The position numbers were made by a program, and so were the translations under genes. DNA of 48,008 bases from a virus (taxonomy: Duplodnaviria; Heunggongvirae; Uroviricota; Caudoviricetes): IMG/VR virus record IMGVR_UViG_2850778813_000004; one strand, 5' to 3'. Below are positions 7,966 to 48,008 of the stretch, piece by piece. The notes beneath the pieces are model-generated. The model saw only the letters and a list, made by a program, of their open reading frames with translations, was not told the origin of the DNA and ran no database searches. Every line of letters begins with the position of its first letter. The stretch's first letter is position 1.

Positions 7966-8247
7966 TTAATCGTAGCGATTTAACACGATTTTGCGTTTGT
8001 CGTTATTACCCACAGTTACCACTTCTGTCGTAACGCCTTTTGCAGTAGAAGAAGCACGATAGTTGGTTTCAACTCGTTGTAACAACTGCCCACAACGTTG
8101 CTGAAGATGATTATTAACAACATCCATACTGCATGTAGGGGAACTAATTCTGCCATTGATGGTTAATGTTGCAGTCTCTGAAGAGAACGCGGGAGAAGCC
8201 AATCCATAGGCAAGAAAAATAATTCCTGACAGCCAATACTTATTCAT
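7966..8247 (-). CDS. yehE: YehE-like small secreted protein
   Basis: 93-aa ORF with signal peptide, positioned between yehD and mrp as in K-12. Confidence 0.7.
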   Translation of the reverse strand: MNKYWLSGIIFLAYGLASPAFSSETATLTINGRISSPTCSMDVVNNHLQQRCGQLLQRVETNYRASSTAKGVTTEVVTVGNNDKRKIVLNRYD

Positions 8248-8509
8248 TGAACGTTATCCCTGTAGTAAAGGTTATGCCTGGATAGAATGAGTGCATAACA
8301 AACTATAGCTGTACATCCACTACACAGCCACGAAGGATGATAATGAAGCATTGCCTGTACGATCAATCGACTTTGTAGAGTTTCGGACGAAGGTCCGCAG
8401 AATATTCGCAGTATTAAATAAGTGTTCATTAATGCGGCAAAAACAAATACACCGCATCAATATAACATCTCTGCGGTGTATGAAGAATAACCAGAATGGT
8501 TAATAGGCG

Positions 8510-9619
8510 TTAGACCGCGCGGAAGGAAATCTCGCCTGGAATGACTTCACCCTGCCAGTAGAGCTGAGCTGCAACGCGGTCAGCCAGCTGGCGGTAGATA
8601 GCGGTAAATTCGCTCTCCGGGCGGCTGATAACCGTTGGCGTGCCTTTATCGAGATCCTCACGTAAGGAGATGTGTAACGGCATCTGCCCCAGCAGCTGTG
8701 TATGGTATTTTTCAGCCAGTTTCTCTGCACCACCGGTACCGAAAATCGGTTCATGGTGACCACAGTTACTGCAAATATGCACACTCATGTTCTCGACAAT
8801 ACCGAGCACCGGAACCTCGACTTTCTCGAACATCACAATGCCTTTTTTCGCATCGATCAACGCGATGTCCTGCGGGGTGGTGACCACGACTGCACCAGTT
8901 ACTGGAATGTTTTGCGCCAGCGTCAATTGAATGTCACCGGTGCCTGGCGGCATATCAAGCACCAGATAGTCGAGATCCGGCCACAAGGTTTCCTGCAGCA
9001 TCTGCATTAACGCCTTGCTCGCCATCGGTCCACGCCACACCATCGCATTGTCGTCAGTGACCAGATAACCAATTGAATTGGTTGCCAGGCCATGAGACAT
9101 AATCGGTGCCATATGGGTACCGTCCGGCGAAGTTGGACGCTGATTTTCTGCGCCCAGCATGGTGGGAATTGATGGGCCGTAGATATCGGCGTCCAGAATG
9201 CCGACTTTCGCCCCTTCCGCCGCCAGTGCCAGCGCCAGGTTTACCGCCGTGGAGGATTTACCCACGCCGCCTTTACCGGAACTGACCGCAATGATGTTCT
9301 TCACGCCATTAATACCCGGCTGATTCTTCACGCGTTTTAAGGTGGCGATATTGTGCGACAGTTTCCAGTCGATAGCTTTCGCCCCGGTGATACGCAGCAG
9401 TTCGGCGCTACATTGCTCTTTTAACTCTTCAAACGCGCTATGCCAGACGAATGGCATAACCAGTTCCACATGCAACGTGTCGTCCATCCAGGCGACATGG
9501 TGCAACGCTTTCAGCGTGGTGAGGTTATGCTTCAGGGTTGGGTGCTGAAAATTGGCCAGTGTCCCGGCGACCATTGCGCGCAAGGCTTCTGGTGATTTGG
9601 CCTGGGATTGTTCGTTCAT
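8510..9619 (-). CDS. apbC: Mrp/ApbC iron-sulfur cluster carrier ATPase
   Basis: 369 aa from ATG at 9619; Walker A GKGGVGKSST, CxxC motif, MinD/ParA fold; divergent from metG as in K-12. Confidence 0.9.
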   Translation of the reverse strand: MNEQSQAKSPEALRAMVAGTLANFQHPTLKHNLTTLKALHHVAWMDDTLHVELVMPFVWHSAFEELKEQCSAELLRITGAKAIDWKLSHNIATLKRVKNQPGINGVKNIIAVSSGKGGVGKSSTAVNLALALAAEGAKVGILDADIYGPSIPTMLGAENQRPTSPDGTHMAPIMSHGLATNSIGYLVTDDNAMVWRGPMASKALMQMLQETLWPDLDYLVLDMPPGTGDIQLTLAQNIPVTGAVVVTTPQDIALIDAKKGIVMFEKVEVPVLGIVENMSVHICSNCGHHEPIFGTGGAEKLAEKYHTQLLGQMPLHISLREDLDKGTPTVISRPESEFTAIYRQLADRVAAQLYWQGEVIPGEISFRAV

Positions 9620-14723: not shown

Positions 14724-15026
14724 TTAACGCGTATTTTTCAGCGACTCCTGTGCAAAATACGCTGTTGCTTTTTTTAATATATCTCGCTCAAGGCGAGCTT
14801 CATTTAACGCCTTACGCAGTTGCAGAATTTCAGATTCCAGTTCAGCCACCGTGCGGGAACCAGGAGTACCGAGCCCTTTTCTGGCGGCGGTAACCCATTG
14901 TCCTAAAGTGCCTTCAGGAAGGGATAATCGGGAAGCGCCTTCACTGATCGAAAGTTGATTTTCAAGAACCGTTCTGACAGCTTCGGCTTTGAACTCTTTA
15001 GAGTAACGTTGGTTTTTTCTGCTCAT
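14724..15026 (-). CDS. IS600-like orfA
   Basis: 100-aa ORF MSRKNQRYSKEFKAEAVRTVLENQ...; identical to 44688-44990. Confidence 0.85.
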   Translation of the reverse strand: MSRKNQRYSKEFKAEAVRTVLENQLSISEGASRLSLPEGTLGQWVTAARKGLGTPGSRTVAELESEILQLRKALNEARLERDILKKATAYFAQESLKNTR

Positions 15027-24145: not shown

Positions 24146-26042
24146 GTTGGAGTCATTACCGCATAATTGCCAATCTCAACGTAAATATCATATGTATCGC
24201 CGGATGTGTTGATCCAGGCGAAATTCGTTAATCCGACGGCTGTACGCTTCCACAAAGCCCCGGTAATTCCTTTGGGGTTTCCATTGCCTGCTCGTAGAAC
24301 CAGTTCTGAAATGCCTGCCTGATGTGGGGAACCGACGTTGTAACCAGCGCCACCAATCAATGCGATGTAAACGATGGAACTCGCTTGTGGCATGGTAACC
24401 GTAGCCAGTTTGAACCACCCAGCCCCGCCAGAGAAAGACATCGTTACTGAATTTAAAGTACCAATATCTTTCGGCGTTAATGTTATATCCGCAGTCAATG
24501 CTTTTCCGTTAACTTTTCGGTTAGATGGCACCCTGCTATTCGCATTGTCATTGGCTGCTTTAACTGCTTTTGGCGTTGCGGCCAGCGATTCACTGGTGCT
24601 ATCAACAGCACTGCTAAGTTTCACAACACCTTTAGTTGTAAGGCTTGCGTCTTCCATCGCAACTGCACCGGCAATCTCTTCAGCACGATCAGCAGCAGCT
24701 TCCGCACGGGTCGCAGCGGATTCAGCAGTAGTTTTGCTCTGAGATGCTGCCGTCGCACTGCCTGCCGCCTCTGTTGCCTTCGTGGATGCCGTCGTGGCGC
24801 TGCTCTTCGCTGCTGACGCTTGTCTGGTCGCCTCATCTTTTGAAGCAGACGCCGATGATGCCGATGACGCCGCCGAACTGGCGGACGATGCGGCAGCCGT
24901 TTTTGAGGATTCTGCGCTGGTTTCCGACGCTTTCGCGTTCGTTTCGGATGTCTTCGCTGCGGAAGCAGACCTCGCTGCTGCGCTGGCCTGTTCAGTGGCT
25001 TCGCCAGCCTTCGTTGTGGCTGTTGAAGCAGACGATGCGGAGCTTTCTGCCGATTTTCCGGCGGCGGTGACACTGGCTGAGGCCTGCCCGGCACTTGTTG
25101 ACGCTGCACTGGCAGACGACGCAGCCGCTGTTTTTGAGCCTGCCGCAGCTGAGGCACTCTGTTCCGCTGCCGTTTCAGAAGACCTGGCGTTTGTCTCAGA
25201 CGTTTTTGCCGCCTTCGCAGAATTTGCTGCCGCCGTTGCCGAGGAAGCTGCGCTGCTGGCGCTCGAGGCTGCGTTCGTTTCTGATGATTTTGCCGCCTCT
25301 TTTGAAGCCGACGCATCCCGTGCTGAAGTGGCTGCTTCTGACGCTTTCGTGGTCGCGGTGGATGCAGAAGTGGCTGCTGATTGTTGTGACGCTGCCGCAT
25401 TCGTTTCTGACGTTTTCGCCGCACCGGCACTGGTAGCCGCCGCGCTTTTTGAGGACTCTGCAGCGGCAGCACTTTTTAATGCTTCAGTGGCCTTTGTTGA
25501 TGCCGTTCCTGCGCTGGAAGACGCTGACTGAGCCGACGACGCGGCCTGTCCGGCTGACGTGCTGGCGGCACGTGCTGAGGCTGCAGCATCGGTTGCATGA
25601 GTTGCCGCCTCGCTGGCTGATGCACTGGCATCGCTGGCTGATTTTTTCGCGGCTGCCGTATTCTGTGCAACCGCGGAGGCGTTACGTGACACCTCTTCCA
25701 CCATCTGCTCAAAGCGGCGCAGTGCCTCCGGTCGGACATCATCCTCCGTCATGGCACCGAGAAAATCATTCAGCGTACCTGGTCTGGAACCTTCATAGAC
25801 GGTAATGGTCCCGGCATGTGAAGGCGGAAAACCTTCAACCAGCAGGGTGACGCTGTACTGACCATGCTCAACATCCATGCTGTAACGTCCGGCTTCATCC
25901 GGATTTTCAGAGGCCACCGTGTTCACCACCACCGTGCTGCTGGTTCGTCTGGCCTTCAGCACAATGGTGCAGTTCTGTACTGGTTTTCCTGTGCCATCTT
26001 TAAGCACGCCAGAAATTTTTACTGTCATACTTTTCCACCAAT

Positions 26043-40357: not shown

Positions 40358-41863
40358 TCATGGCATGGCCATGAGCATTTTCACGTCCGCATCACCGTCT
40401 GCTGACGTCTGTGACACGCCACCCCGCACCGCTGCCGGTGAATGATTCGCCATGAAATGTTCAAACAGGGCGGTTGTGGATGCAGAGACCGGTTCGGCCT
40501 TACCTGATCCCGCAGCCAGCACAGCCCGGGCGTTCTCCACGGTCATTCCCGGGCAGGCCGCCAGTTTTTCAGCCTGCGCTTCTGCCCCTTTTGCCTCATC
40601 CAGGGCCATGATCTGATCACGAAGTGAGGGCCCGGCATCCGCCAGTGGTGCAGCCGCCAGGATCGGGCGGGCTTTTTCCACCGTCATCTCCGGCATCGCC
40701 GCCAGCGTTGCCGCCAGTTGTTCACGACCGTTCGCTTCTTCACACGCCATAATGCGATCGGCTTCACTCTGCGCGGATGCCACCGGCTGCTGCGGTGCCG
40801 CCGCGGCCAGAATCGCCCGGGCCTGTTCAACGCTCATGCCCTGTTGCCCTGCCAGCATCGTGGCAAGCTGTTCACGTCCTTTCGCTTCCTGGCATGTCAG
40901 GATCCCCATCACTCGCTGGTTCTCCTGCACGGCGGCTTCCGTTGCAGTTAATTGCGGCATAGTGCCTCCTCTGACATTACTGTTCAGCGCCGTGGCCATC
41001 ACACTGATGGCATCCGACGCATTGATTAATTCATCCGCCAGCCCGGCCTCAATGCCGGACTGACCTTCAAAAACAGCGGCCTCTGTTCCCGTGACTGCAT
41101 CAACAGACAGACCGGTAAACATCGCCACTTTTTCGGCAAACATCCGGCGCGCCGCATCAATCCGCTGCTGCATGTCCTGGCGAACCTCTGCCGGCAACGC
41201 TTCAAACTGATTGCCATCCACCTTGTGCGCCCCTGAGTAAATCAGCGTGATATCCACACCGGCCTGCGCCAGATGACCGGCATAGCTGACATGGCTCATC
41301 ATCACGCCAATGGAACCGATACGGGATGTCTGGGTAACCAGCCGTCGGGAGCAGGCCGACGCCAGCAGCATGGCCGCAGAACAGGCCGTGTCATTACACA
41401 GTGCCCAGACCGGCTTCTGCTGCCGGAGGCGGTAAATCATGTCAGCGCAGTCAAACACGCCGGCGGCCTGCCCGCCCGGACTGTCAATGTCCAGCAGTAT
41501 GCCCCGCACCTGGCTATCTGCCATTGCCTGCTGAAGACAGGTGACAATGCCGTCATAGCCAGTCATTCCGGAAAATGGCCGCATCCCCCCCAGCCGGTGC
41601 ACCAGCGTGCCGGTCACCGGCAGTACCGCAATACCGTTCACCACCCGGTAAACACGGGCCGGTCGTTTACCTCCGGCCATGTACTCGTCCGTTTCAGCCA
41701 GCATCCCGGGAGCATCAAGCTGTACCTGCTGTTGCGGTACCGAAAGACTTGCTGTCCCCATCTCGCGCCCCAGCGCGCAAAAGAAAACCCGCGCATAGGC
41801 GGGCTCCAGAAGCAGCGGTTCATTGAATGCTGCTGCAATAATGTGTGAAAGATTACGTCTCAC
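40358..41863 (-). CDS. C: Capsid maturation protease / scaffold (lambda C-Nu3 homologue, S49 peptidase)
   Basis: 501-aa ORF (GTG start at 41863, overlapping the portal stop); SppA/ClpP-like domain followed by three tandem ~45-aa repeats at residues ~318-456. Confidence 0.85.
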   Translation of the reverse strand: MRRNLSHIIAAAFNEPLLLEPAYARVFFCALGREMGTASLSVPQQQVQLDAPGMLAETDEYMAGGKRPARVYRVVNGIAVLPVTGTLVHRLGGMRPFSGMTGYDGIVTCLQQAMADSQVRGILLDIDSPGGQAAGVFDCADMIYRLRQQKPVWALCNDTACSAAMLLASACSRRLVTQTSRIGSIGVMMSHVSYAGHLAQAGVDITLIYSGAHKVDGNQFEALPAEVRQDMQQRIDAARRMFAEKVAMFTGLSVDAVTGTEAAVFEGQSGIEAGLADELINASDAISVMATALNSNVRGGTMPQLTATEAAVQENQRVMGILTCQEAKGREQLATMLAGQQGMSVEQARAILAAAAPQQPVASAQSEADRIMACEEANGREQLAATLAAMPEMTVEKARPILAAAPLADAGPSLRDQIMALDEAKGAEAQAEKLAACPGMTVENARAVLAAGSGKAEPVSASTTALFEHFMANHSPAAVRGGVSQTSADGDADVKMLMAMP

Positions 41864-42638
41864 GTGGTGTTGTCTCCTCTTCCGGCCTGCGACTCTCCGC
41901 TATCTGCTGCTGATACGCCTGCGCTATCCACACCGGACGTGAGAGTCCGGCTTTTTCCCGCTCTGCAGATTCCCTGACCTGTTGGCAGAAAATGTCCTGA
42001 TAATCCTCGCCCATCAGCGCCAGCTCTTTCTCATACGTGCTCAGTCCGGCCTCAATGCGCATCACTGATTCCTGAACCTCCTTGAGCCCGTCAATGGCCA
42101 TTCTTCCGGCTCCAATCCACTCAGCCCGTGACCAGGCTGATCGCGCCTGATAAAAATCAAACCGTGCCCGTGGCGGACGAATAATCCCCCGAAGAAGTGC
42201 CTCTTCCAGCCAGCAGGAAAACATCTGCGTGGCCAGCCGGGACGCAATAAATTTTCGCCGCCCCATAAAATAGCGCCACGACTCATTGGCGGATGCGCGG
42301 GCACTTGAGTAACTGACCTTCGAGTAATCACGGGACAACTGTTCGTAGGAAACGCCAAGACCGGCGGCGATATACCGCAGCAGCGCCTGTTCAAGCGCCG
42401 AAAATCCATTGTCTGAATCCTGCGCGGTCTGAAGTTTCAGATCATCACCGGGGAAAAGGTGCGGAATTTTGACACCGCCCAGCATCACGCTATTCGTGTC
42501 ATACCAGGTGGAGAACTTATCCAGAATATTAATAAGCGGATTATCCTTCTGCCCCTGCGGCGCACCGGCGATATATTCAAAGGCCTTTTCGGTATCAAGG
42601 TCACTTTCAATCGTCGCTGCATACATCGCCTTTATGAA
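41853..42638 (-). pseudogene. B: Portal protein B, 3' fragment only (roughly the last 260 codons)
   Basis: Homology to lambda B starts at ...FIKAMYAATIESDLD (lambda ...VKAMYAATIESELD, about residue 290) and runs to the stop; upstream sequence is unrelated. Confidence 0.85.
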
Positions 42639-42761
42639 AAGACAGGAAAAAATAAAATTTAAAAACAGTACATTACGAATGCTCAGACCTATCGTTTAAA
42701 GGAGTCGCAATACACACTGCAATACACGATTATTTATAAGATGAGCGGCATCCGTCATAAA

Positions 42762-42987
42762 GCTGGTGGATGCTTTTTCTATGCATATATGCACAGTTTT
42801 AGTGGGCGTTAATGTCGATATAGGGATCCCCATATCGAGATTGGATACCAGGCTTTTTTAATCAGGCTGGTGGGCTTTACCTGTTTTGTATGAGTGGTCA
42901 TCATGACCATGTCATAACAAAAACCCCATATTCGTGGTTTTTCTGTGTCGGGCTATTCTGTCGTTGCTGTGCTGATTTGGCTGGTGG
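42762..42987 (+). other. Cluster of three co-oriented Chi sites (5'-GCTGGTGG-3') at 42762-42769, 42866-42873, 42980-42987
   Basis: Exact octamers on the plus strand about 104 and 114 bp apart, inside an ORF-poor stretch; three palindromes lie in between. Confidence 0.9.
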
Positions 42988-43052
42988 GCTGAATCATCAT
43001 TACGGCGATGCAGCTATGTAGACGTTCCGGCCTCCTCAAATTGAGGATTGTG

Positions 43053-43205
43053 GAAGAATCAATGGGTTAGTCTTACTTTCCCGACATCCCCAATGGGGGG
43101 TTTCGAAACAATCAATAGCTTAGGCTTACTTCCCCGATTTCCTGCATTGCAGGTTTTCGAAATAATCAATGGGTTAGGCCATCGTGCAATTTTGCACTTT
43201 GCCAG
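43053..43205. repeat. About 2.8 tandem copies of a 53-bp imperfect repeat, each with a short hairpin
   Basis: Units start gaagaatcaatgggttag (43053), gaaacaatcaatagcttagg (43105), gaaataatcaatgggttagg (43159); embedded palindromes ccccaatgggg, cctgcattgcagg, gtgcaattttgcac. Confidence 0.85.
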
Positions 43206-43427
43206 CCAGCGCAATGTCGCGTTATCAGTCCTCAGATGTGAGGGATGTAGCCAGCTTTTCCCCCAGTGGGGGATATCCAGCACCGACGGCTTAACTGTGC
43301 GTGCCAGCACAAGGTAGCCTTGAACTACTTACTGCATCCCATCTTACAGGCCGTGCCTTCCTGCTTAACTTTTTGCAATGCAACAAGTCAGCCAGCGCAA
43401 TTTTGCGTTATCGGGAATATCAGCAAG

Positions 43428-43709
43428 TTACCGCCGCAATCGTTCCGGCTTCTTCCACTGGTAAGTATTTTTCGCGCTCTCCCTCCGTTGTTGAGAACGG
43501 CGACGATATGCCAGCAACTCAAGGACTCTTGTTCGTATGTTGCGCATATCCACGCCGTTAAGCTCAATACCGTCACGGCGCATCACCTCAGCCACTACAC
43601 GCACATAATTATCTGCGGTCACGCTGTCCGGCTGCGTGGCCTGTTCGTCATGCTGCTTGCTGATTCCACAAGCACGGCGGATTAATCGCAGTATTTCGGA
43701 TTCAGTCAT
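43428..43709 (-). CDS. Hypothetical 93-aa protein with Arg/Lys-rich C-terminus (may be non-coding)
   Basis: ATG at 43709 but no clear Shine-Dalgarno; MTESEILRLIRRACGISKQHDEQ...RRRSQQRRESAKNTYQWKKPERLRR; no family recognised. Confidence 0.3.
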   Translation of the reverse strand: MTESEILRLIRRACGISKQHDEQATQPDSVTADNYVRVVAEVMRRDGIELNGVDMRNIRTRVLELLAYRRRSQQRRESAKNTYQWKKPERLRR

Positions 43710-43833
43710 AGCGTACTACGTTACTTATCTTTATTCGGCTGCAACTTATCCGGTACGTTTCCGGCAGTTTCCATCAGATAATCGGACAGCTGAGGTGTAC
43801 TGGCAATAGCGGACACTACCATTTGTTCTTTTT

Positions 43834-44652
43834 TTAAGCAGCCATCTGATGATATTTTTCCCTGAAGGCTGCCGGGGAGATATTCCCCAGACGAGAGTGA
43901 CGACGCTGACGATTGTAGAAAATCTCAATGTATTCCCGTATTACTGAGATGGCTTCATCCCGGTTATTAAAACGATAGTGGCTCAGGCTCTCATTTTTCA
44001 GCGTTCCCCAGAAGCTTTCCATCGGAGCGTTGTCGTAACAGTGACCTTTACGCGACATTGATGTTTTCAGACCAGACTGCTCCTGTATGACCCGGTAATC
44101 GTATGCGCAGTACTGTGAACCTCGATCAGAGTGGTGGATTAGCCCGGCAGGTGGGCGCTGGCTCCTGAGCGCCATAAACAGGGCTTTACCTGTCAGCTCT
44201 TTTGTCATGCGCTCTCCCATGGCGTAGCCGACAATTTCGCACGTATAAACATCTTTGATGCCAGCGAGGTACAACCATCCCTCCTGTGTGGCAACATACG
44301 TCAGGTCCGCCACCCAGACCTGATTTGGTGCTGTAGGAGCGAACGTCTGGTTCAGCAGATTTGGCGCAACTGGCAGATTGTGGTTCGGGTTCGTAGTCGC
44401 TCTGAACTTGCGTTTCTGCTTACAGCGTAGCCTTAGCTCCTTACGAAGACGTGCCAGTCGGTCACGACCAACGATGATGCCATTCTCTGCCAGCTCCGTC
44501 TGGAGCCGCCGGGTTCCATATGTTTCGCGAGTGCGGATATGTGCCACCTTAATCTCCAGTTTTAGCCGCTCATCACTTTGTTTTCTGTCTGAGGGTTCAT
44601 GCTGTACCCAGTTGTAATAACCGCTCCTGGATACACCAAATACCTGACACAT
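43834..44652 (-). CDS. IS600-like orfB (DDE transposase)
   Basis: 272-aa ORF with the IS3-family DDE region (...LIHHSDRGSQYCA...CYDNAPMESFWGTLKNE...). Confidence 0.85.
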   Translation of the reverse strand: MCQVFGVSRSGYYNWVQHEPSDRKQSDERLKLEIKVAHIRTRETYGTRRLQTELAENGIIVGRDRLARLRKELRLRCKQKRKFRATTNPNHNLPVAPNLLNQTFAPTAPNQVWVADLTYVATQEGWLYLAGIKDVYTCEIVGYAMGERMTKELTGKALFMALRSQRPPAGLIHHSDRGSQYCAYDYRVIQEQSGLKTSMSRKGHCYDNAPMESFWGTLKNESLSHYRFNNRDEAISVIREYIEIFYNRQRRHSRLGNISPAAFREKYHQMAA

Positions 44653-44687
44653 CGCTTCAATGGGAAATTGTTGTCGCCATTGTTCGA

Positions 44688-44990
44688 TTAACGCGTATTT
44701 TTCAGCGACTCCTGTGCAAAATACGCTGTTGCTTTTTTTAATATATCTCGCTCAAGGCGAGCTTCATTTAACGCCTTACGCAGTTGCAGAATTTCAGATT
44801 CCAGTTCAGCCACCGTGCGGGAACCAGGAGTACCGAGCCCTTTTCTGGCGGCGGTAACCCATTGTCCTAAAGTGCCTTCAGGAAGGGATAATCGGGAAGC
44901 GCCTTCACTGATCGAAAGTTGATTTTCAAGAACCGTTCTGACAGCTTCGGCTTTGAACTCTTTAGAGTAACGTTGGTTTTTTCTGCTCAT
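44688..44990 (-). CDS. IS600-like orfA
   Basis: 100-aa ORF identical to 14724-15026. Confidence 0.85.
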   Translation of the reverse strand: MSRKNQRYSKEFKAEAVRTVLENQLSISEGASRLSLPEGTLGQWVTAARKGLGTPGSRTVAELESEILQLRKALNEARLERDILKKATAYFAQESLKNTR

Positions 44991-45145
44991 TATTAGCTCC
45001 TTCTGATGCCATTCTATTTCAGGAAGGAGTGTCCGTTAAACTCAGGCTACCTCAATCAGCGCCAGTCAGTCAGCCGGAGCAAAAACAGAAGCCCCACTCA
45101 TTCCGGAACAACCTTCTTAATAACCCATTTCAACGAGAAAATCCT

Positions 45146-45415
45146 ATGTCAGAAATAAAATCGCTGGTCACTGCTGAGGCAGTGAAGGAAGTCCTGCGCT
45201 CTGAAGAAGTCCGGAGCGCACTGAAACAGCAACTTCGGCAGAACCTTGAGGCGCGTCTTGATGCAGAAGTGGATTCAATTCTGGATGAACTGCTGGGCGC
45301 ACCGACTGTTCCGGAGCCGGAAGGCATTGCGGATGACAGTGCTGTTTCAGATGGCGTCGGGTCTCAGCCTGACGGTAGTGAAGGGCCTCAGCCTGACGGC
45401 GAAATGATGATGTAA
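45146..45415 (+). CDS. Hypothetical 89-aa acidic protein
   Basis: ATG at 45146; helical N-terminus (MSEIKSLVTAEAVKEVLRSEEVRSALKQQLRQNLEARLDAEVDSILDELLG) and acidic Pro/Gly/Asp tail; sits between IS600 copy B and IS66 copy 2; no family recognised. Confidence 0.4.
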   Translation: MSEIKSLVTAEAVKEVLRSEEVRSALKQQLRQNLEARLDAEVDSILDELLGAPTVPEPEGIADDSAVSDGVGSQPDGSEGPQPDGEMMM

Positions 45416-45618
45416 CCATGCGCAGGGGGTGTCGGTGTGAGCTGATGCCCCACTTGTTGTTGTGAGCTTCCGGATTGCGGGAGACGGGGTATGTACCAGA
45501 TGGAAAAAATCACAACAGGTGTGTCATACACCGTAAGCGTAAACTGACCGCCGTATGTAGCCATTAAGCCTGTATTGGTAACGTAGGTGCCCACCTTTTC
45601 AACTAGTGGACACCTGTT

Positions 45619-46038
45619 ATGGAACAGAAAGCATTATCTGCAGAACCCCGCAGATCATTTTCAAATGAGTTTAAACTTCAAATGGTTAAACTGGCTTCAC
45701 AACCAGGAGCCTCTGTTGCCCGTATTGCCCGGGAACACGATATCAATGATAACCTGCTGTTCAAATGGCTCAGGCTCTGGCAGAACGAAGGGCGCATATC
45801 GCGGCGTCTTCCGGTAACAACCTCTTCTGACACTGGCGTTGAATTATTACCTGTGGAGATAACGCCGGATGAGCCGAAAGAACCGGTGGCTGCTCTTACT
45901 CCGTCTTTATCTACTCAGACTACAGTTAGTGCCAGCTCCTGCAAGGTGGAGTTCCGTCACGGTAACATGACGCTGGAAAATCCTTCACCAGAGCTGCTCA
46001 CAGTGTTGATCCGTGAACTGACCGGGAGGGGACGATGA
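45619..46038 (+). CDS. IS66-family accessory protein TnpA (orfA)
   Basis: Identical to 1-420. Confidence 0.85.
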   Translation: MEQKALSAEPRRSFSNEFKLQMVKLASQPGASVARIAREHDINDNLLFKWLRLWQNEGRISRRLPVTTSSDTGVELLPVEITPDEPKEPVAALTPSLSTQTTVSASSCKVEFRHGNMTLENPSPELLTVLIRELTGRGR

Positions 46039-46385
46039 TCTCACACCCGTCAGGCACCCGCATCTGGCTCGTTGCTGGGATAACCGATATGCGTAAGTCT
46101 TTCAACGGGCTGGGTGAACAGGTACAGCATGTGCTGAATGATAATCCCTTCTCCGGTCACCTGTTCATCTTCCGTGGCCGACGGGGTGACATGATTAAAA
46201 TCCTGTGGGCTGATGCTGATGGTCTGTGCCTGTTCACCAGACGCCTGGAGGAAGGCCAGTTTATCTGGCCTGCTGTGCGTGACGGCAAGGTATCCATTAC
46301 CCGCTCGCAACTGGCAATGCTCCTCGATAAGCTGGACTGGCGTCAGCCAAAAACATCCCGCCTTAACGCACTGACAATGTTGTAA
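46035..46385 (+). CDS. IS66-family TnpB (orfB)
   Basis: Identical to 417-767. Confidence 0.85.
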   Translation: MISHPSGTRIWLVAGITDMRKSFNGLGEQVQHVLNDNPFSGHLFIFRGRRGDMIKILWADADGLCLFTRRLEEGQFIWPAVRDGKVSITRSQLAMLLDKLDWRQPKTSRLNALTML

Positions 46386-46415
46386 AAATGTCATGGCCGG
46401 ATTATAAAAACGGCC

Positions 46416-48008
46416 ATGAATCAAAAATACCTCATTCGCATTGCAGAACTGGAATGCCAGCTCCGTCAGAAAGACCAGCAACTGAGTCTGGTTGAAGAGA
46501 CGGAGGCCTTCCTGCGCTCTGCACTGGCCCGCGCCGAAGAAAAGATCGAAGAAGATGAACGGGAAATAGAACATCTGCGGGCTCAGATAGAAAAACTGCG
46601 CCGGATGCTGTTCGGTACCCGTTCTGAAAAACTGCGTCGTGAAGTTGAACAGGCTGAGGCCCTGCTGAAACAACGCGAACAGGACAGTGATCGTTACAGT
46701 GGGCGGGAAGACGATCCGCAGGTTCCCCGCCAGTTGCGACAGTCTCGTCATCGTCGCCCGTTACCGGAGCATCTGCCCCGCGAAATAAATCGCCTGGAGC
46801 CAGAAGAAAGCTGTTGCCCGGAGTGTGGCGGTGAGCTGGATTATCTGGGGGAAGTCAGCGCAGAACAACTGGAACTGGTGAGCAGCGCTCTGAAAGTGAT
46901 CCGCACAGAACGGGTAAAAAAAGCCTGTACAAAATGTGACTGCATCGTTGAAGCACCGGCACCATCCCGTCCGATAGAGCGTGGTATCGCGGGCCCGGGG
47001 TTACTTGCCCGCATGTTAACGGGAAAATACTGCGAACACCTGCCACTGTATCGTCAGAGTGAAATTTTTGCCCGTCAGGGTGTCGAACTGAGCCGTGCAT
47101 TACTCTCCAACTGGGTTGACGCGTGCTGCCAGTTAATGACGCCGCTGAATGATGCTCTGTACCGTTATGTGATGAACAGCCGCAAAGTTCACACTGATGA
47201 CACACCAGTAAAAGTGCTGGCACCGGGCAGGAAGAAGGCGAAAACAGGATATATCTGGACGTATGTCCGGGATGACAGGAATGCCGGTTCGCCAGAGCCT
47301 CCGGCGGTCTGGTTCGCCTACTCACCGGACCATCAGGGTAAACATCCGGAGCAGCACCTTAGTCCCTTCCGGGGTATCCTGCAGGCAGATGCGTTTAATG
47401 GTTACGATCGGCTGTTCAGTGCCGAACGAGAAGGCGGCGCGTTGACGGAAGCAGGATGCTGGGCTCATGCGCGGCGCAAAGTCCACGATGTATATATCAG
47501 TACCAAAAGCGCGACAGCGGAAGAAGCCCTGAAACTAATCGGTGAGCTGTATGCCATCGAGCACGAAATACGCGGGTTGCCGGTGTCTGAACGCCTGGCG
47601 GTCAGGCAAATGCAGAGTAAACCGCTACTGACTTCCCTGTATAAGCTGATGCAGGAGAAAGAACACACGTTATCGAAAAAATGCCGTCTGAGAGATGCGT
47701 TCCGGTATATCAGGAAGCACTGGGTTGCGTTGTGCAACTTCAGTGATGATGGTCTGGCTGAGGCGGATAATAATGCCGCGGAAAGAGCGCTTCGTGCAGT
47801 CTGTCTCGGAAAGAAAAACTTTATGTTCTTCGGCAGCGATCACGGTGGAGAGCGTGGTGCGCTACTGTACGGGCTGATCGGCACCTGCCGACTGAACGGT
47901 ATCGATCCGGAAGCGTATCTGCGCTATATCCTGAGCGTACTGCCGGAATGGCCTTCCAACCGTGTTGACGAACTCCTGCCATGGAACGTAGCACTCACCA
48001 ATAAATAA
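46416..48008 (+). CDS. IS66-family transposase TnpC
   Basis: 530 aa, identical in protein sequence to 798-2390 (one synonymous difference at 47552). Confidence 0.9.
   Translation: MNQKYLIRIAELECQLRQKDQQLSLVEETEAFLRSALARAEEKIEEDEREIEHLRAQIEKLRRMLFGTRSEKLRREVEQAEALLKQREQDSDRYSGREDDPQVPRQLRQSRHRRPLPEHLPREINRLEPEESCCPECGGELDYLGEVSAEQLELVSSALKVIRTERVKKACTKCDCIVEAPAPSRPIERGIAGPGLLARMLTGKYCEHLPLYRQSEIFARQGVELSRALLSNWVDACCQLMTPLNDALYRYVMNSRKVHTDDTPVKVLAPGRKKAKTGYIWTYVRDDRNAGSPEPPAVWFAYSPDHQGKHPEQHLSPFRGILQADAFNGYDRLFSAEREGGALTEAGCWAHARRKVHDVYISTKSATAEEALKLIGELYAIEHEIRGLPVSERLAVRQMQSKPLLTSLYKLMQEKEHTLSKKCRLRDAFRYIRKHWVALCNFSDDGLAEADNNAAERALRAVCLGKKNFMFFGSDHGGERGALLYGLIGTCRLNGIDPEAYLRYILSVLPEWPSNRVDELLPWNVALTNK

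What the first reader, a model, noticed from the sequence alone, without database searches (positions are those of the whole stretch)
42639..43790. Orphan 1.15-kb non-coding module with a Chi-site triad, four palindromes and a 53-bp tandem repeat array where the prophage head end should be
Lambda-type portal homology ends at about 42638 and IS600 starts at 43791. The segment between has no convincing gene but is dense in DNA signals. Three exact Chi octamers (GCTGGTGG) lie in the same orientation within 226 bp (42762, 42866, 42980); a random 8-mer is expected about once per 65 kb per strand. There are four palindromes: tgcatatatgca (42782-42793), cgatatagggatccccatatcg (42816-42837), tggtcatcatgacca (42895-42909) and cctcaaattgagg (43031-43043). 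About 2.8 tandem copies of a 53-bp unit follow (43053-43205), each with an ...atcaatRgSttagg... box and its own small hairpin. A 24-bp direct repeat cagccagcgcaatNNNgcgttatc occurs at 43203 and 43389. This looks like an origin, partition site or recombination hot spot rather than coding DNA. The adjacent 93-aa Arg-rich ORF (43428-43709) could be its binding protein.
Basis: partly seen in the sequence, partly recalled or inferred. Interest (0 to 1): 0.6.

Follow-up and report, generated by a model that had tools for sequence, protein, structure and literature searches.

The report
Cut-off end of a phage satellite
The "orphan module" is the last 1.16 kb of a known kind of phage satellite (a helper-embedded PICI) that inserted into the prophage's portal gene and was later cut off by IS600. 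Its dense signals are the satellite's attachment-site arm, a cluster of Chi sites and an array of predicted IHF sites, so it is not an origin or a partition site.

Summary
Three exact co-oriented Chi octamers, three palindromes, a 53/54-bp repeat in three copies and a 24-bp direct repeat are all present. Only the coordinates of the fourth palindrome are 3 nt off.

The segment is not an orphan. Window 42628-43790 is 98.6% identical to the right end of a 10.9-kb island that splits the portal gene of lambda-like prophages in E. coli. That island carries int, alpA, bro, primase plus ori, ssb, capsid, decoration, alpA-like, cos, terS and ORF93. This is the helper-embedded PICI class of Tommasini et al. 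2023 (site B:Phage_portal_2:~241), including its diagnostic doubled TGTATTGC motif. IS600 (43791-45054) removed the rest.

The island's ori and cos lie elsewhere, so the origin, partition and packaging-site readings fail.

Two features appear undescribed in the papers I read and searched:
- Chi is the commonest octamer in these satellites (about 0.9 per kb), while 20 kb of helper flank has none.
- The repeat "box" is a perfect IHF consensus placed 10 nt after a 5-bp-stem palindrome whose sequence varies.

ORF93 is a conserved last late gene of unknown function. Nothing shows that it binds DNA.

In this window the segment is a fossil.

The parts
41853..42626 (-). 3' part of the lambda-type portal gene of the helper prophage (C-terminal 257 aa)
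   Evidence: Pfam Phage_portal_2, profile positions 238-354 of 354. The matching 5' part (profile 2-239) lies on the far side of the island in the intact relative L001.
42620..42632 (.). attR crossover block. ATCGCCTT (42625-42632) is identical in attL and attR, within a 13-nt block that has one mismatch.
   Evidence: Comparison of L001 attR (14960-15000) with attL (25870-25889), and the point where window/L001 identity rises from about 73% to 98.6%.
42707..42727 (.). Doubled arm motif GCAATACAC-N3-GCAATACAC (reverse complement of tgTGTATTGCantgTGTATTGCa), the attP signature of helper-embedded PICIs
   Evidence: [quoted passage not shown] The motif and its two-arm placement are described in PMC10111431.
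42747..42780 (+). Hairpin GGCATCC...GGATGC followed by a T run, with Chi 1 inside it. This block is conserved next to the arm motif in other PICI types.
   Evidence: Terminator-like hit. The block ccgtYatRaaGCTGGTGGatg recurs in L020, L022 and L025.
42762..42769 (+). Chi 1 (GCTGGTGG)
42782..42793 (.). Perfect 12-nt palindrome TGCATATATGCA
42816..42837 (.). 22-nt near-palindrome, part of a roughly 90-nt block (palindrome, T run, Chi 2) shared with other PICIs
42866..42873 (+). Chi 2. The surrounding 23-28 nt are 100% identical in L020 and L022, and 24 nt are 96% identical in L024, while the rest of those terminal regions differs.
   Evidence: The window copy has lost 13 nt just upstream, relative to L001.
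42895..42909 (.). 15-nt palindrome TGGTCATCATGACCA
   Evidence: It lies in a block shared with L025 at 93.5% identity.
42980..42987 (+). Chi 3
   Evidence: A 25-nt direct repeat links the contexts of Chi 2 and Chi 3 (D4).
43034..43176 (+). Array of three "palindrome, 9-10 nt, IHF consensus" units. Palindromes at 43034-43046, 43088-43100 and 43141-43153. WATCAANNNNTTR at 43057, 43110 and 43164.
43184..43197 (.). Additional palindrome GTGCAATTTTGCAC that closes the array in all relatives
43203..43412 (.). 24-bp direct repeats (43203-43226 and 43389-43412) bracketing a segment; the repeat starts are 186 bp apart. The segment is absent from several related arrays (for example L028, L029).
43396..43430 (+). 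Fourth unit: palindrome CGCAA-TT-TTGCG, 10 nt, then TATCAGCAAGTTA (one mismatch to the IHF consensus), which overlaps the ORF93 stop codon
   Evidence: Relatives carry perfect sites here (TATCAACAAGTTA, TATCAAACAGTTA, TATCAACCAGTTA).
43428..43709 (-). ORF93, the conserved last gene of the PICI late zone (phrog_1561, function unknown)
43721..43790 (-). Last 23 codons of the satellite's Nu1-type small-terminase gene (terS), cut by IS600
43791..45054 (-). IS600 (1264 bp). It is not part of the satellite but is what truncates it. The 3-nt flanks differ (AGC and ATC), so it joins unrelated DNA.

Best explanation
Identity (shown; my estimate about 0.95). Window 42620-43790 is the right-hand end of a helper-embedded phage-inducible chromosomal island (HE-PICI). 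The island inserted by tyrosine-integrase recombination into the portal gene of a lambda-like prophage, in the same orientation as the late genes. IS600 later deleted everything to the right of the terS 3' end: the satellite's cos, capsid genes, ori, primase and int, and also the prophage head end. The piece left in this window can no longer excise or be packaged, so here it is a fossil.

Function in the intact element (inferred). The non-coding 0.8 kb lies between the last late gene (ORF93) and the crossover. It has three layers.

1. The int-distal attP arm (42620 to about 42730). It carries the crossover block and the doubled Int-arm motif (about 0.85).

2. A Chi cluster (about 0.55).
- The satellite encodes SSB, but I found no recombinase and no RecBCD inhibitor. 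It is saturated with Chi at about 0.9 per kb.
- I propose that host RecBCD, on entering linear or concatemeric satellite DNA, is switched at Chi from degradation to RecA loading.
- That would protect the DNA and yield the multimers that cos packaging needs.
- The three co-oriented sites are active for RecBCD travelling from cos through terS and ORF93 towards attP and int. They lie 1.4-1.65 kb from the left cohesive end.
- Recognition of a single Chi is only partial (established knowledge). Three sites would therefore stop most enzymes before they reach int and the replication genes.

3. An array of phased units, each a short variable palindrome, 10 nt, then an IHF consensus.
- I take these to be IHF binding and bending sites spaced about five helical turns apart (binding about 0.6).
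- They would form an architectural boundary between the last operon and attP. The exact role is open.
For: Identity.
- Full-length 98.6% match in about 50 E. coli chromosomes, and partial matches in 1492 of 5426 genomes.
- In NZ_CP011416 the segment ends a 10.9-kb island with int, alpA-type HTH, BRO-N, icd-like, DUF4222, primase, SSB, capsid E, decoration D, alpA-like, terS and ORF93. The island splits a portal gene at Pfam profile position 238/239.
- The exact ORF93 protein is indexed in 6301 blocks of the assembly collection. All ten contigs shown had the same context.
- Tommasini et al. 2023 describe this class, a B:Phage_portal_2:241 site and the doubled motif on both attP arms. The motif is at 42707-42727 and at L001 25735-25755.
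- Only satellite positions 1-1177 occur in the window, and none of the head end.

Not an origin or a cos site.
- Iterons CCYTCTACC, in two inverted sets, lie right after the primase gene. This matches the published layout of PICI origins.
- An exact lambda cosQ/cosN lies upstream of terS at L001 16773-16784.

Chi.
- All 10 Chi in the 31 kb of L001 lie inside the satellite (1.46 expected; 0 of 100 shuffles reached 10). The 20.3 kb of helper flank has none.
- Two circular PICIs have 9 and 12 Chi against 0.32 and 0.35 expected (0 of 200 shuffles each).
- Chi is the top-ranked 8-mer in the L001 satellite. Pooled over the three elements it occurs 31 times in 33.8 kb, against 15 for the next 8-mer.
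- Chi 1 and Chi 2 sit in short blocks that are conserved, in the same orientation, in PICIs with different arm motifs.
- No Gam or recombinase family was found among the satellite's small proteins.

IHF units.
- Three perfect WATCAANNNNTTR sites lie 53 and 54 nt apart in one orientation.
- The only other perfect matches in the 48-kb window are four identical sites (TATCAATAAGTTG), against 1.78 expected for the whole window. I read these four as lying in IS1 copies, from the 91-aa and 125-aa ORFs next to them. IS1 ends are known IHF binders (my own knowledge).
- Relatives keep the consensus while the N4 positions vary.
- 32 of 43 distinct units have a perfect 5-bp-stem palindrome 8-10 nt upstream (27 at exactly 10 nt), against 3.6% in shuffles. 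They use 10 different stem sequences.
Against: Identity and layout.
- My distances from the crossover to the doubled motif are about 79-88 nt and 123-143 nt. They do not reproduce the published 81 and 132 nt exactly under any single convention.
- Integrase-clade membership was not tested by phylogeny.

Chi.
- Orientation across the whole satellite is 5:5. The Chi-rich phages show a strong polarity instead.
- In lambda convention the triad is on the bottom strand. It is therefore inactive for the classical entry of RecBCD at the right cos end.
- Entry at the left end, or a rolling-circle tail running in the packaging direction, has to be assumed.
- Lambda-type helpers usually make Gam, which would make Chi unnecessary during helper growth.
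- Chi 1 lies in a conserved hairpin block next to the Int arm sites. It could belong to a protein-binding site.
- Some PICIs, such as L016, lack the Chi blocks and the array.

IHF units.
- Binding was not measured.
- The array lies 400-550 bp from the crossover, outside the arm motifs.
- It is inverted relative to int and att in perC-type elements. Its role therefore does not depend on orientation, and it remains undefined.
Confidence: 0.8

Rival explanations
1. Replication origin or partition site, with the 54-bp repeats as iterons or centromere repeats bound by ORF93.
For: Tandem repeats, palindromes and IHF sites are common in plasmid origins and in the P1 parS site (my own knowledge). The repeats are real.
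Against: - The satellite has a typical PICI origin elsewhere. Two inverted sets of CCYTCTACC iterons lie directly after the primase gene, as published for E. coli PICIs.
- These iterons do not occur in the module.
- No partition genes are present in the island or in two complete circular relatives.
- The array copy number ranges from 1 to 3, and the array occurs in either orientation.
- L003 has the unit but lacks ORF93.
- The ORF93 model shows no DNA-binding fold.
Confidence: 0.03
2. Packaging signal: an extended cosB or a second cos site, where the satellite's TerS and IHF assemble.
For: - Lambda cosB contains an IHF site between its R sites.
- terS lies only 0.3 kb away.
- Some PICIs have two cos sites.
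Against: - No cosN-like sequence occurs in the module, even allowing 2 mismatches.
- The satellite's lambda-identical cosQ/cosN lies upstream of terS, as in lambda, 1.2-1.7 kb from the array.
- The published PICI cosB is a single R3-like site with no IHF site.
- The array also occurs in perC-type elements far from any terS gene.
Confidence: 0.03
3. The octamers are not selected as Chi. GCTGGTGG is part of the binding site of a conserved satellite protein (for example AlpA acting as excisionase) in an extended attP arm, or a by-product of composition.
For: - Chi 1 and Chi 2 sit in conserved 25-90-nt blocks at a fixed place next to the Int arm motif in PICIs with different integrase specificities.
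- Chi 1 is half buried in a conserved hairpin.
- CCGTYAT direct repeats precede it in relatives.
Against: - Seven further Chi lie scattered through coding regions of the same satellite.
- Chi is the top 8-mer in three unrelated PICIs, at 26- to 34-fold over dinucleotide expectation.
- The flanking helper has none.
- A local binding site cannot explain enrichment across the whole element.
Confidence: 0.12
4. The palindrome-plus-box units act at the RNA level, or as a repetitive mosaic element. They would be hairpins in the 3' untranslated region that stabilise or terminate the last operon's transcript, like the REP/BIME-1 (RIP) elements found at the 3' ends of operons. The IHF-like box would be secondary.
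For: - Stems co-vary: 10 different perfect 5-bp stems.
- The region folds better than shuffled sequence (z = -3.4 as RNA, -2.6 as DNA).
- The units always follow the last gene, ORF93 or perC, in either orientation.
- In one orientation the hairpin is followed by TTTTCG.
- BIME-1/RIP elements combine palindromic units with an IHF site (my own knowledge).
Against: - Five-bp stems are weak as terminators or exonuclease blocks.
- In ORF93-type islands the T run is on the wrong strand.
- The box keeps exactly the IHF consensus positions while N4 varies.
- Its 10-nt distance to the palindrome is fixed, which points to a duplex-DNA site.
- No Rfam family matches.
Confidence: 0.15
5. Junk: the decayed remnant of accessory genes, with signals there by chance.
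For: - The region is mosaic and indel-prone (13-nt and 1-nt indels, and a segment bracketed by direct repeats 186 bp apart).
- In other PICIs this position carries cargo genes such as perC or abi.
Against: - No protein family matches any frame.
- The short blocks that carry Chi, the palindromes and the IHF boxes are the conserved parts, and the sequence between them varies.
- From the shuffle rate I calculate about 0.01 Chi expected in 226 bp, against three found.
Confidence: 0.05

Closest known systems
Helper-embedded PICIs (HE-PICI; Tommasini, Mageeney and Williams 2023, NAR Genom Bioinform, PMC10111431), site B:Phage_portal_2:241
   Same: - Inserted in, and co-oriented with, a lambda-type portal gene at profile position about 239.
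- No replacement sequence, so the target gene is disrupted.
- Doubled TGTATTGC motif on both attP arms.
- Four-zone layout (integration, Bro, replication, late) in the intact relative.
- The helper is often truncated in its chromosomal setting, as here.
   Different: - The window holds only the last 1.16 kb, because IS600 removed the rest.
- The paper does not mention Chi, tandem repeats or non-coding/intergenic DNA, and reports no IHF-like motif at these attP sites.
EcCICFT073-type Gram-negative cos PICIs (Fillol-Salom et al. 2018, 2019)
   Same: - Lambda-like cosQ/cosN with a diverged cosB next to a TerS-like gene.
- Pri-ori module with two sets of iterons.
- The ORF93 family follows rpp or terS in chromosomal relatives (L020-L025).
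   Different: - This island encodes a full-length Nu1-type TerS (180 aa, with the C-terminal Nu1 domain) rather than a 139-154-aa Rpp.
- It sits inside the helper rather than at a chromosomal site.
[quoted passage not shown]
   Same: - A cos-packaged, lambda-related replicon with no recombinase or RecBCD inhibitor found.
- Chi ranks at the top of all octamers, with a terminal cluster.
   Different: - Chi density is higher (about 0.9 per kb, against 23 Chi in LLS, whose sequencing primers place the genome at about 42.7 kb).
- Orientation is balanced at 5:5, not 20:3.
- The cluster faces the left (terS) end, not the right end.
- That study did not consider satellites.
Lambda attP P arm and other tyrosine-integrase attP arms
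   Same: - Located on the int-distal arm.
- Arm-type Int repeats.
- IHF consensus sites and an A-rich spacer next to the core.
   Different: - The IHF array lies 400-550 bp from the crossover, beyond the arm-type motif.
- It occurs in either orientation in related elements.
- Lambda attP is about 240 bp in all (my own knowledge).
BIME-1 / RIP (RIB) elements of the E. coli chromosome: palindromic units flanking an IHF site at the 3' ends of operons
   Same: - A mosaic of short palindromes plus an IHF consensus.
- Located after the last gene of a transcription unit.
- Variable copy number.
   Different: - The palindromes are 12-14 nt with variable sequence, not REP units of about 35 nt.
- The family is confined to PICI and prophage termini, with a median of one place per genome for matches to any part of the non-coding stretch.
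- One hit in one-genome-per-species representatives, in line with the roughly two chance matches I calculate for the pattern; the contig shares no similarity with the held loci.
- The resemblance is recalled from memory and was not tested.

Membership tests
Helper-embedded PICI (HE-PICI) | [quoted passage not shown] | tested here: met
   - The portal gene is split at Pfam positions 238/239.
- terS and ORF93 lie on the same strand as the portal gene.
- Only 8-13 nt are shared between attL and attR.
Helper-embedded PICI (HE-PICI) | Doubled motif tgTGTATTGCantgTGTATTGCa, co-oriented, once on each attP arm at fixed distances (81 and 132 bp) | tested here: met
   - Present at window 42707-42727 and at L001 25735-25755.
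- Measured distances are 79-88 nt and 123-143 nt depending on the convention. This is close to the published figures but not an exact reproduction.
Helper-embedded PICI (HE-PICI) | Integrase of the HE-PICI clade at one terminus, followed by alpA | tested here: inconclusive
   - Both genes are absent from the window.
- In L001 a 413-aa tyrosine integrase (Arm-DNA-bind_3 plus Phage_integrase) is followed by an AlpA-type HTH gene.
- Clade membership was not tested by phylogeny.
Helper-embedded PICI (HE-PICI) | Four ordered zones: integration, Bro, replication, late | tested here: met
   The annotation of L001 and the gene tables of L004-L013 show this order. The window keeps only the end of the late zone.
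Chi recombination hotspot | Exact octamer 5'-GCTGGTGG-3', approached by RecBCD from its 3' side | tested here: met
   - Three exact octamers are present.
- Their orientation is correct for an enzyme coming from the satellite's left cos end.
- It is wrong for entry at the right end.
Chi recombination hotspot | RecBCD-dependent stimulation of recombination, or protection of linear DNA | not testable with these tools
   This needs genetic crosses or DNA-stability assays in recBCD+ and mutant hosts.
IHF binding site | Consensus WATCAANNNNTTR, usually with an A/T-rich tract 5' of it | tested here: met
   - Three perfect matches are each preceded by TTTTCGAAA-type spacers.
- One further site has one mismatch.
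IHF binding site | Binding and bending by IHF | not testable with these tools
   This needs a gel shift, a footprint or ChIP.
Gram-negative PICI replication origin | [quoted passage not shown] | tested here: not met
   The module has no such iterons. They lie at L001 19618-19855, after the primase gene.
Lambda-type cos site | cosN GGGCGGCGACCT with cosQ upstream and cosB downstream | tested here: not met
   The module has no match within 2 mismatches. The satellite's cos is at L001 16773-16784, a region missing from the window.
Plasmid or phage partition site | Centromere repeats next to parA/parB-type genes | tested here: not met
   No partition genes are annotated in the intact island or in two complete circular relatives.

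The most novel reading that the evidence does not exclude
PICI satellites of E. coli, as a class, rely on the host RecBCD-Chi pathway.
- Chi is their most over-represented octamer, at about 0.9 per kb. By my own knowledge of the K-12 Chi count, that is four to five times the chromosomal density. Their lambda-type helper flank has none.
- They carry a dedicated end module between the last gene and attP. It combines conserved co-oriented Chi blocks with a previously undescribed family of "variable palindrome, 10 nt, IHF site" units.
- This module would protect and multimerise the cos-packaged genome.
- It would also act as the recombination hot spot through which cargo and end segments are shuffled between satellites and prophages.
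Probability: 0.35. Interest if true: 0.55.

Novelty: new member of a known kind. Interest (0 to 1): 0.35.

Why it matters
For annotating this genome, the result removes a puzzle. The prophage has no head end because a satellite split its portal gene and IS600 then deleted the rest. The leftover DNA is inert here.

More generally, two points may deserve a systematic survey.

1. The rule "no recombination module means many Chi sites", shown in 2025 for lambdoid phages, seems to extend to their satellites, and in a stronger form.
- If so, satellite transfer should depend on host RecBCD and on whether the helper makes Gam.
- That is directly testable, and it matters for PICI-based delivery vectors.

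2. A compact unit (palindrome plus IHF site) marks the boundary between the last gene and attP in several kinds of integrative element. It may be a handle on how these ends are organised or exchanged.

Tried and rejected
RNA families. An Rfam scan of 41500-45500 at E <= 1 found nothing.

Coding potential.
- Pfam and PHROG scans of the internal ORFs found nothing.
- Indels against the relative argue against any frame.

Origin. Rejected once the iteron origin was found beside the primase gene.

cos. Rejected once the lambda-identical cosN was found upstream of terS and none in the module.

Phage and plasmid collections.
- Phage hits were only a 50-nt match inside phage anti-repressor (roi) genes, or unannotated DNA, in 14 records.
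- There were a few plasmid hits. Two of them are probably excised circular PICIs.

Related loci. A scan of one-genome-per-species contigs with the ORF93 protein found no relative.

Unit pattern. The same collection gave one hit, in line with the roughly two chance matches I calculate for the pattern; the contig shares no similarity with the held loci. The family is therefore strain-variable DNA of E. coli and its close relatives.

ORF93.
- No Pfam family, no PDB sequence match and only 39 representative clusters.
- The AlphaFold model is three helices at pLDDT 73, and Foldseek against the PDB gave nothing below E = 1. Its function stays unknown.

By eye. I looked for sigma-54 or sigma-70 promoters, DnaA boxes and dif/cer-like sites in the array and saw nothing convincing. 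The consensus scan found only one weak promoter-like site.

Orientation. I could not reconcile the orientation of the Chi triad with the classical entry of RecBCD at the right end.
Full report

Yes, with small corrections.
- Exact GCTGGTGG occurs on the + strand at 42762, 42866 and 42980. The other 47 kb of the window have one more copy, against 2.0 expected for the whole window.
- The palindromes at 42782-42793, 42816-42837 and 42895-42909 are as described. CCTCAAATTGAGG lies at 43034-43046, 3 nt to the right of the stated position.
- Tandem Repeats Finder reports a 54-nt period at 43057-43179. The repeat finder aligns three copies.
- The 24-bp direct repeat at 43203 and 43389 is 92% identical.
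- The stretch 42633-43427 is non-coding. No family matches its ORFs. The window differs from its closest relative by a 13-nt and a 1-nt indel.
- 43721-43790 is the 3' end of a gene.
- ORF93 (43428-43709) is a conserved gene.

2. What is it?

A megablast search of 42639-43790 finds the whole segment at 98.6% identity in about 50 complete E. coli chromosomes, and parts of it in 1492 of 5426 genomes.

In NZ_CP011416 (L001) the segment is the right end of a 10.9-kb island. The island carries integrase, an AlpA-type HTH gene, BRO-N, an Icd-like gene, DUF4222, primase, SSB, a lambda E-type capsid gene, a D-type decoration gene, a second AlpA-like gene, a Nu1-type small terminase and ORF93.

The island interrupts a lambda-family portal gene.
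- The C-terminal part (Pfam profile 238-354) lies on one side.
- The N-terminal part (profile 2-239) lies on the other side.
- attL and attR share ATCGCCTT, within a 13-nt block that has one mismatch.

This configuration was published in 2023 as the helper-embedded PICI (HE-PICI).
- The paper reports 491 such elements at 14 sites in lambda-type late genes, including B:Phage_portal_2:241.
- It also reports a doubled motif, tgTGTATTGCantgTGTATTGCa, found once on each attP arm and only in this class.
- The motif lies at 42707-42727 in the window. A co-oriented copy lies at L001 25735-25755.

The exact ORF93 protein is indexed in 6301 blocks of the assembly collection. All ten contigs shown had the same context.

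In the window only satellite positions 1-1177 survive.
- IS600 (43791-45054, 1264 bp) cuts terS 23 codons before its stop.
- None of the rest of the satellite, and none of the helper's head end, is present.
- Beyond IS600 lies a fragment of a lambdoid lysis region on the opposite strand, and the 3-nt flanks of IS600 differ. IS600 therefore joins unrelated DNA.
- This explains why the head end is missing.

3. What it is not
- It is not the origin. Two inverted sets of CCYTCTACC iterons lie directly after the primase gene (L001 19618-19855), which is the published layout of E. coli PICI origins.
- It is not the packaging site. An exact lambda cosN, with cosQ and about 25 nt of flank identical to the helper's own cos, lies just upstream of the satellite's terS (L001 16773-16784). 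The module has no cosN-like sequence.
- It is not a partition site. No partition genes occur in the island or in two complete circular relatives.
- No Rfam family matches.

4. Anatomy of the non-coding arm

I compared terminal regions from six other island types that carry an ORF93 homologue: a circular element, a helper-embedded island in a terminase gene, and chromosomal PICIs next to clpS, phoQ, thiM and mdtJ. The region is a mosaic. Short blocks are conserved and the DNA between them differs.

The shared order is:
- the crossover;
- a doubled arm motif, whose sequence changes with the integrase type;
- a block ccgtYatRaaGCTGGTGGatg that forms a hairpin (Chi 1);
- a palindrome, ccccgatatggggatcccc;
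- a T-rich hairpin followed by taatcagGCTGGTGGgctttac (Chi 2);
- variable DNA;
- one to four repeat units;
- the stop codon of ORF93.

The 23-28 nt around Chi 2 are 100% identical in L020 and L022 (24 nt at 96% in L024), though the rest of those regions is otherwise unrelated.

5. Chi
- All ten Chi in the 31 kb of L001 lie inside the satellite (1.46 expected; 0 of 100 shuffles reached ten).
- The 20.3 kb of lambda-type flank has none.
- Two complete circular PICIs have 9 and 12 Chi against 0.32 and 0.35 expected.
- Counted on both strands, Chi is the most frequent octamer in the L001 satellite. Pooled over the three elements it occurs 31 times in 33.8 kb, twice the next octamer.
- Other satellite-bearing contigs run at 0.4-1.1 Chi per kb.
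- The satellite encodes SSB. No recombinase or RecBCD inhibitor was recognised among its other proteins.

This matches the rule shown in 2025 for lambdoid phages. Those without a recombination module are Chi-rich and grow better with RecBCD. That study did not look at satellites.

On orientation:
- With cos upstream of terS, the triad is active for RecBCD moving from cos through terS and ORF93 towards attP and int. It lies 1.4-1.65 kb from the left cohesive end.
- It is inactive for the classical entry at the right end, where terminase leaves the DNA open.
- Over the whole satellite the strands are balanced at 5:5, unlike the 20:3 bias of phage LLS.

The function I propose is therefore an inference. 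Chi would switch RecBCD from degradation to RecA loading, which would protect the DNA and yield packageable multimers. This requires entry at the left end, or at a rolling-circle tail running in the packaging direction.

6. The repeat units

The conserved "box" of the 54-bp repeat is a perfect IHF consensus, WATCAANNNNTTR. It occurs at 43057, 43110 and 43164, in one orientation and about five helical turns apart.

The only other perfect matches in the window are four identical sites, against 1.78 expected for the whole window. I read these as lying in IS1 copies, from the adjacent 91-aa and 125-aa ORFs. IS1 ends are known IHF sites (my own knowledge).

Each box is preceded, at 9-10 nt, by a palindrome with a 5-bp stem.

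Across 43 distinct units from the loci I held:
- the consensus positions stay fixed while N4 varies;
- 32 units have a perfect stem, 27 of them at exactly 10 nt, against 3.6% in shuffles;
- ten different stem sequences are used.

The copy of the 24-bp repeat nearest ORF93 is itself such a unit. Its IHF-like box overlaps the ORF93 stop codon.

Arrays of one to three units also follow perC in other integrative elements. There they are inverted relative to int and att.

The unit therefore works in either orientation, always between the last gene and attP. It lies 230-550 bp from the crossover and outside the arm motifs.

I read the units as IHF bending sites that form an architectural boundary. 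A role at the RNA level or as recombination joints cannot be excluded. Insertions and duplications in relatives are bracketed by partial units.

7. ORF93

ORF93 belongs to phrog_1561, of unknown function. It has 977 close clusters but only 39 diverse representatives. It is the last late gene in many PICIs.

The predicted structure is three helices (pLDDT 73) with no significant match among solved structures.

A complete element that has the unit lacks ORF93. The binding-protein idea therefore has no support.

8. Verdict

The element is an already described kind of satellite, and in this window it is a dead remnant. The Chi saturation of these satellites and the palindrome-plus-IHF units are not mentioned in the papers I read and searched. 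They are modest extensions of known principles and merit a systematic survey.

Noticed in passing
L001 16640-16840 (not in the window): The satellite's cos copies the helper's cosQ/cosN and about 25 nt beyond it exactly, then diverges in cosB. An exact Chi lies about 35 nt after cosN (L001 16730-16737), roughly where lambda has its R3 terminase site.
   Followed up: partly
L020-L025, position 3425: Chromosomal PICIs with the same late module carry a second, inverted exact cosN between terS/rpp and ORF93. This recalls the cos1/cos2 pair of EcCICFT073.
   Followed up: no
L002 (NZ_CP148328.1, 10,790 bp) and L003 (NZ_CP148430.1, 12,152 bp): Two records filed as non-mobilizable E. coli plasmids have the full gene content of PICIs, including integrase, an Icd-like gene, a primase-type gene and either capsid genes or perC (alpA is annotated in L002 only). 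They are most likely excised circular satellites.
   Followed up: partly
window 45056-45530 and 43788-43790 / 45055-45057: Beyond IS600 lies a fragment of a lambdoid lysis region (DUF826, DUF1378, start of a class II holin) on the strand opposite to the late genes. The 3-nt flanks of IS600 differ (AGC and ATC), so the IS joins unrelated DNA after a rearrangement.
   Followed up: partly
window 6390, 15839, 19618, 24137: Four identical perfect IHF-consensus sites (TATCAATAAGTTG). I take them to lie at the ends of IS1 copies, judging from adjacent 91-aa and 125-aa ORFs. The window also begins and ends with the same larger element (ORFs of 139, 116 and 530 aa at 1-2390 and 45619-48008). The region is heavily colonised by insertion sequences.
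   Followed up: no
L009 (GCA_001412995.1), 8098-9212: In one assembly the same satellite is followed by only an 84-aa ORF where the other loci have the 257-aa portal remnant, and then directly by dmsC. The helper has been almost wholly deleted, leaving an "abandoned" satellite.
   Followed up: no
window 42858 and 43090-43100: Compared with the common E. coli version, the window copy has lost 13 nt (ttccggttaacct) just before Chi 2. A 1-nt shift also spoils the palindrome of repeat unit 2. Both are consistent with decay of a non-functional remnant.
   Followed up: yes
L016 and L014-L019: A different helper-embedded island sits in the large-terminase gene of an O157-type prophage. It carries an ORF93 homologue but has a terminal region of only about 370 nt, with one unit and a single Chi in the opposite orientation directly after ORF93. 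The Chi blocks and the array are therefore not universal.
   Followed up: partly
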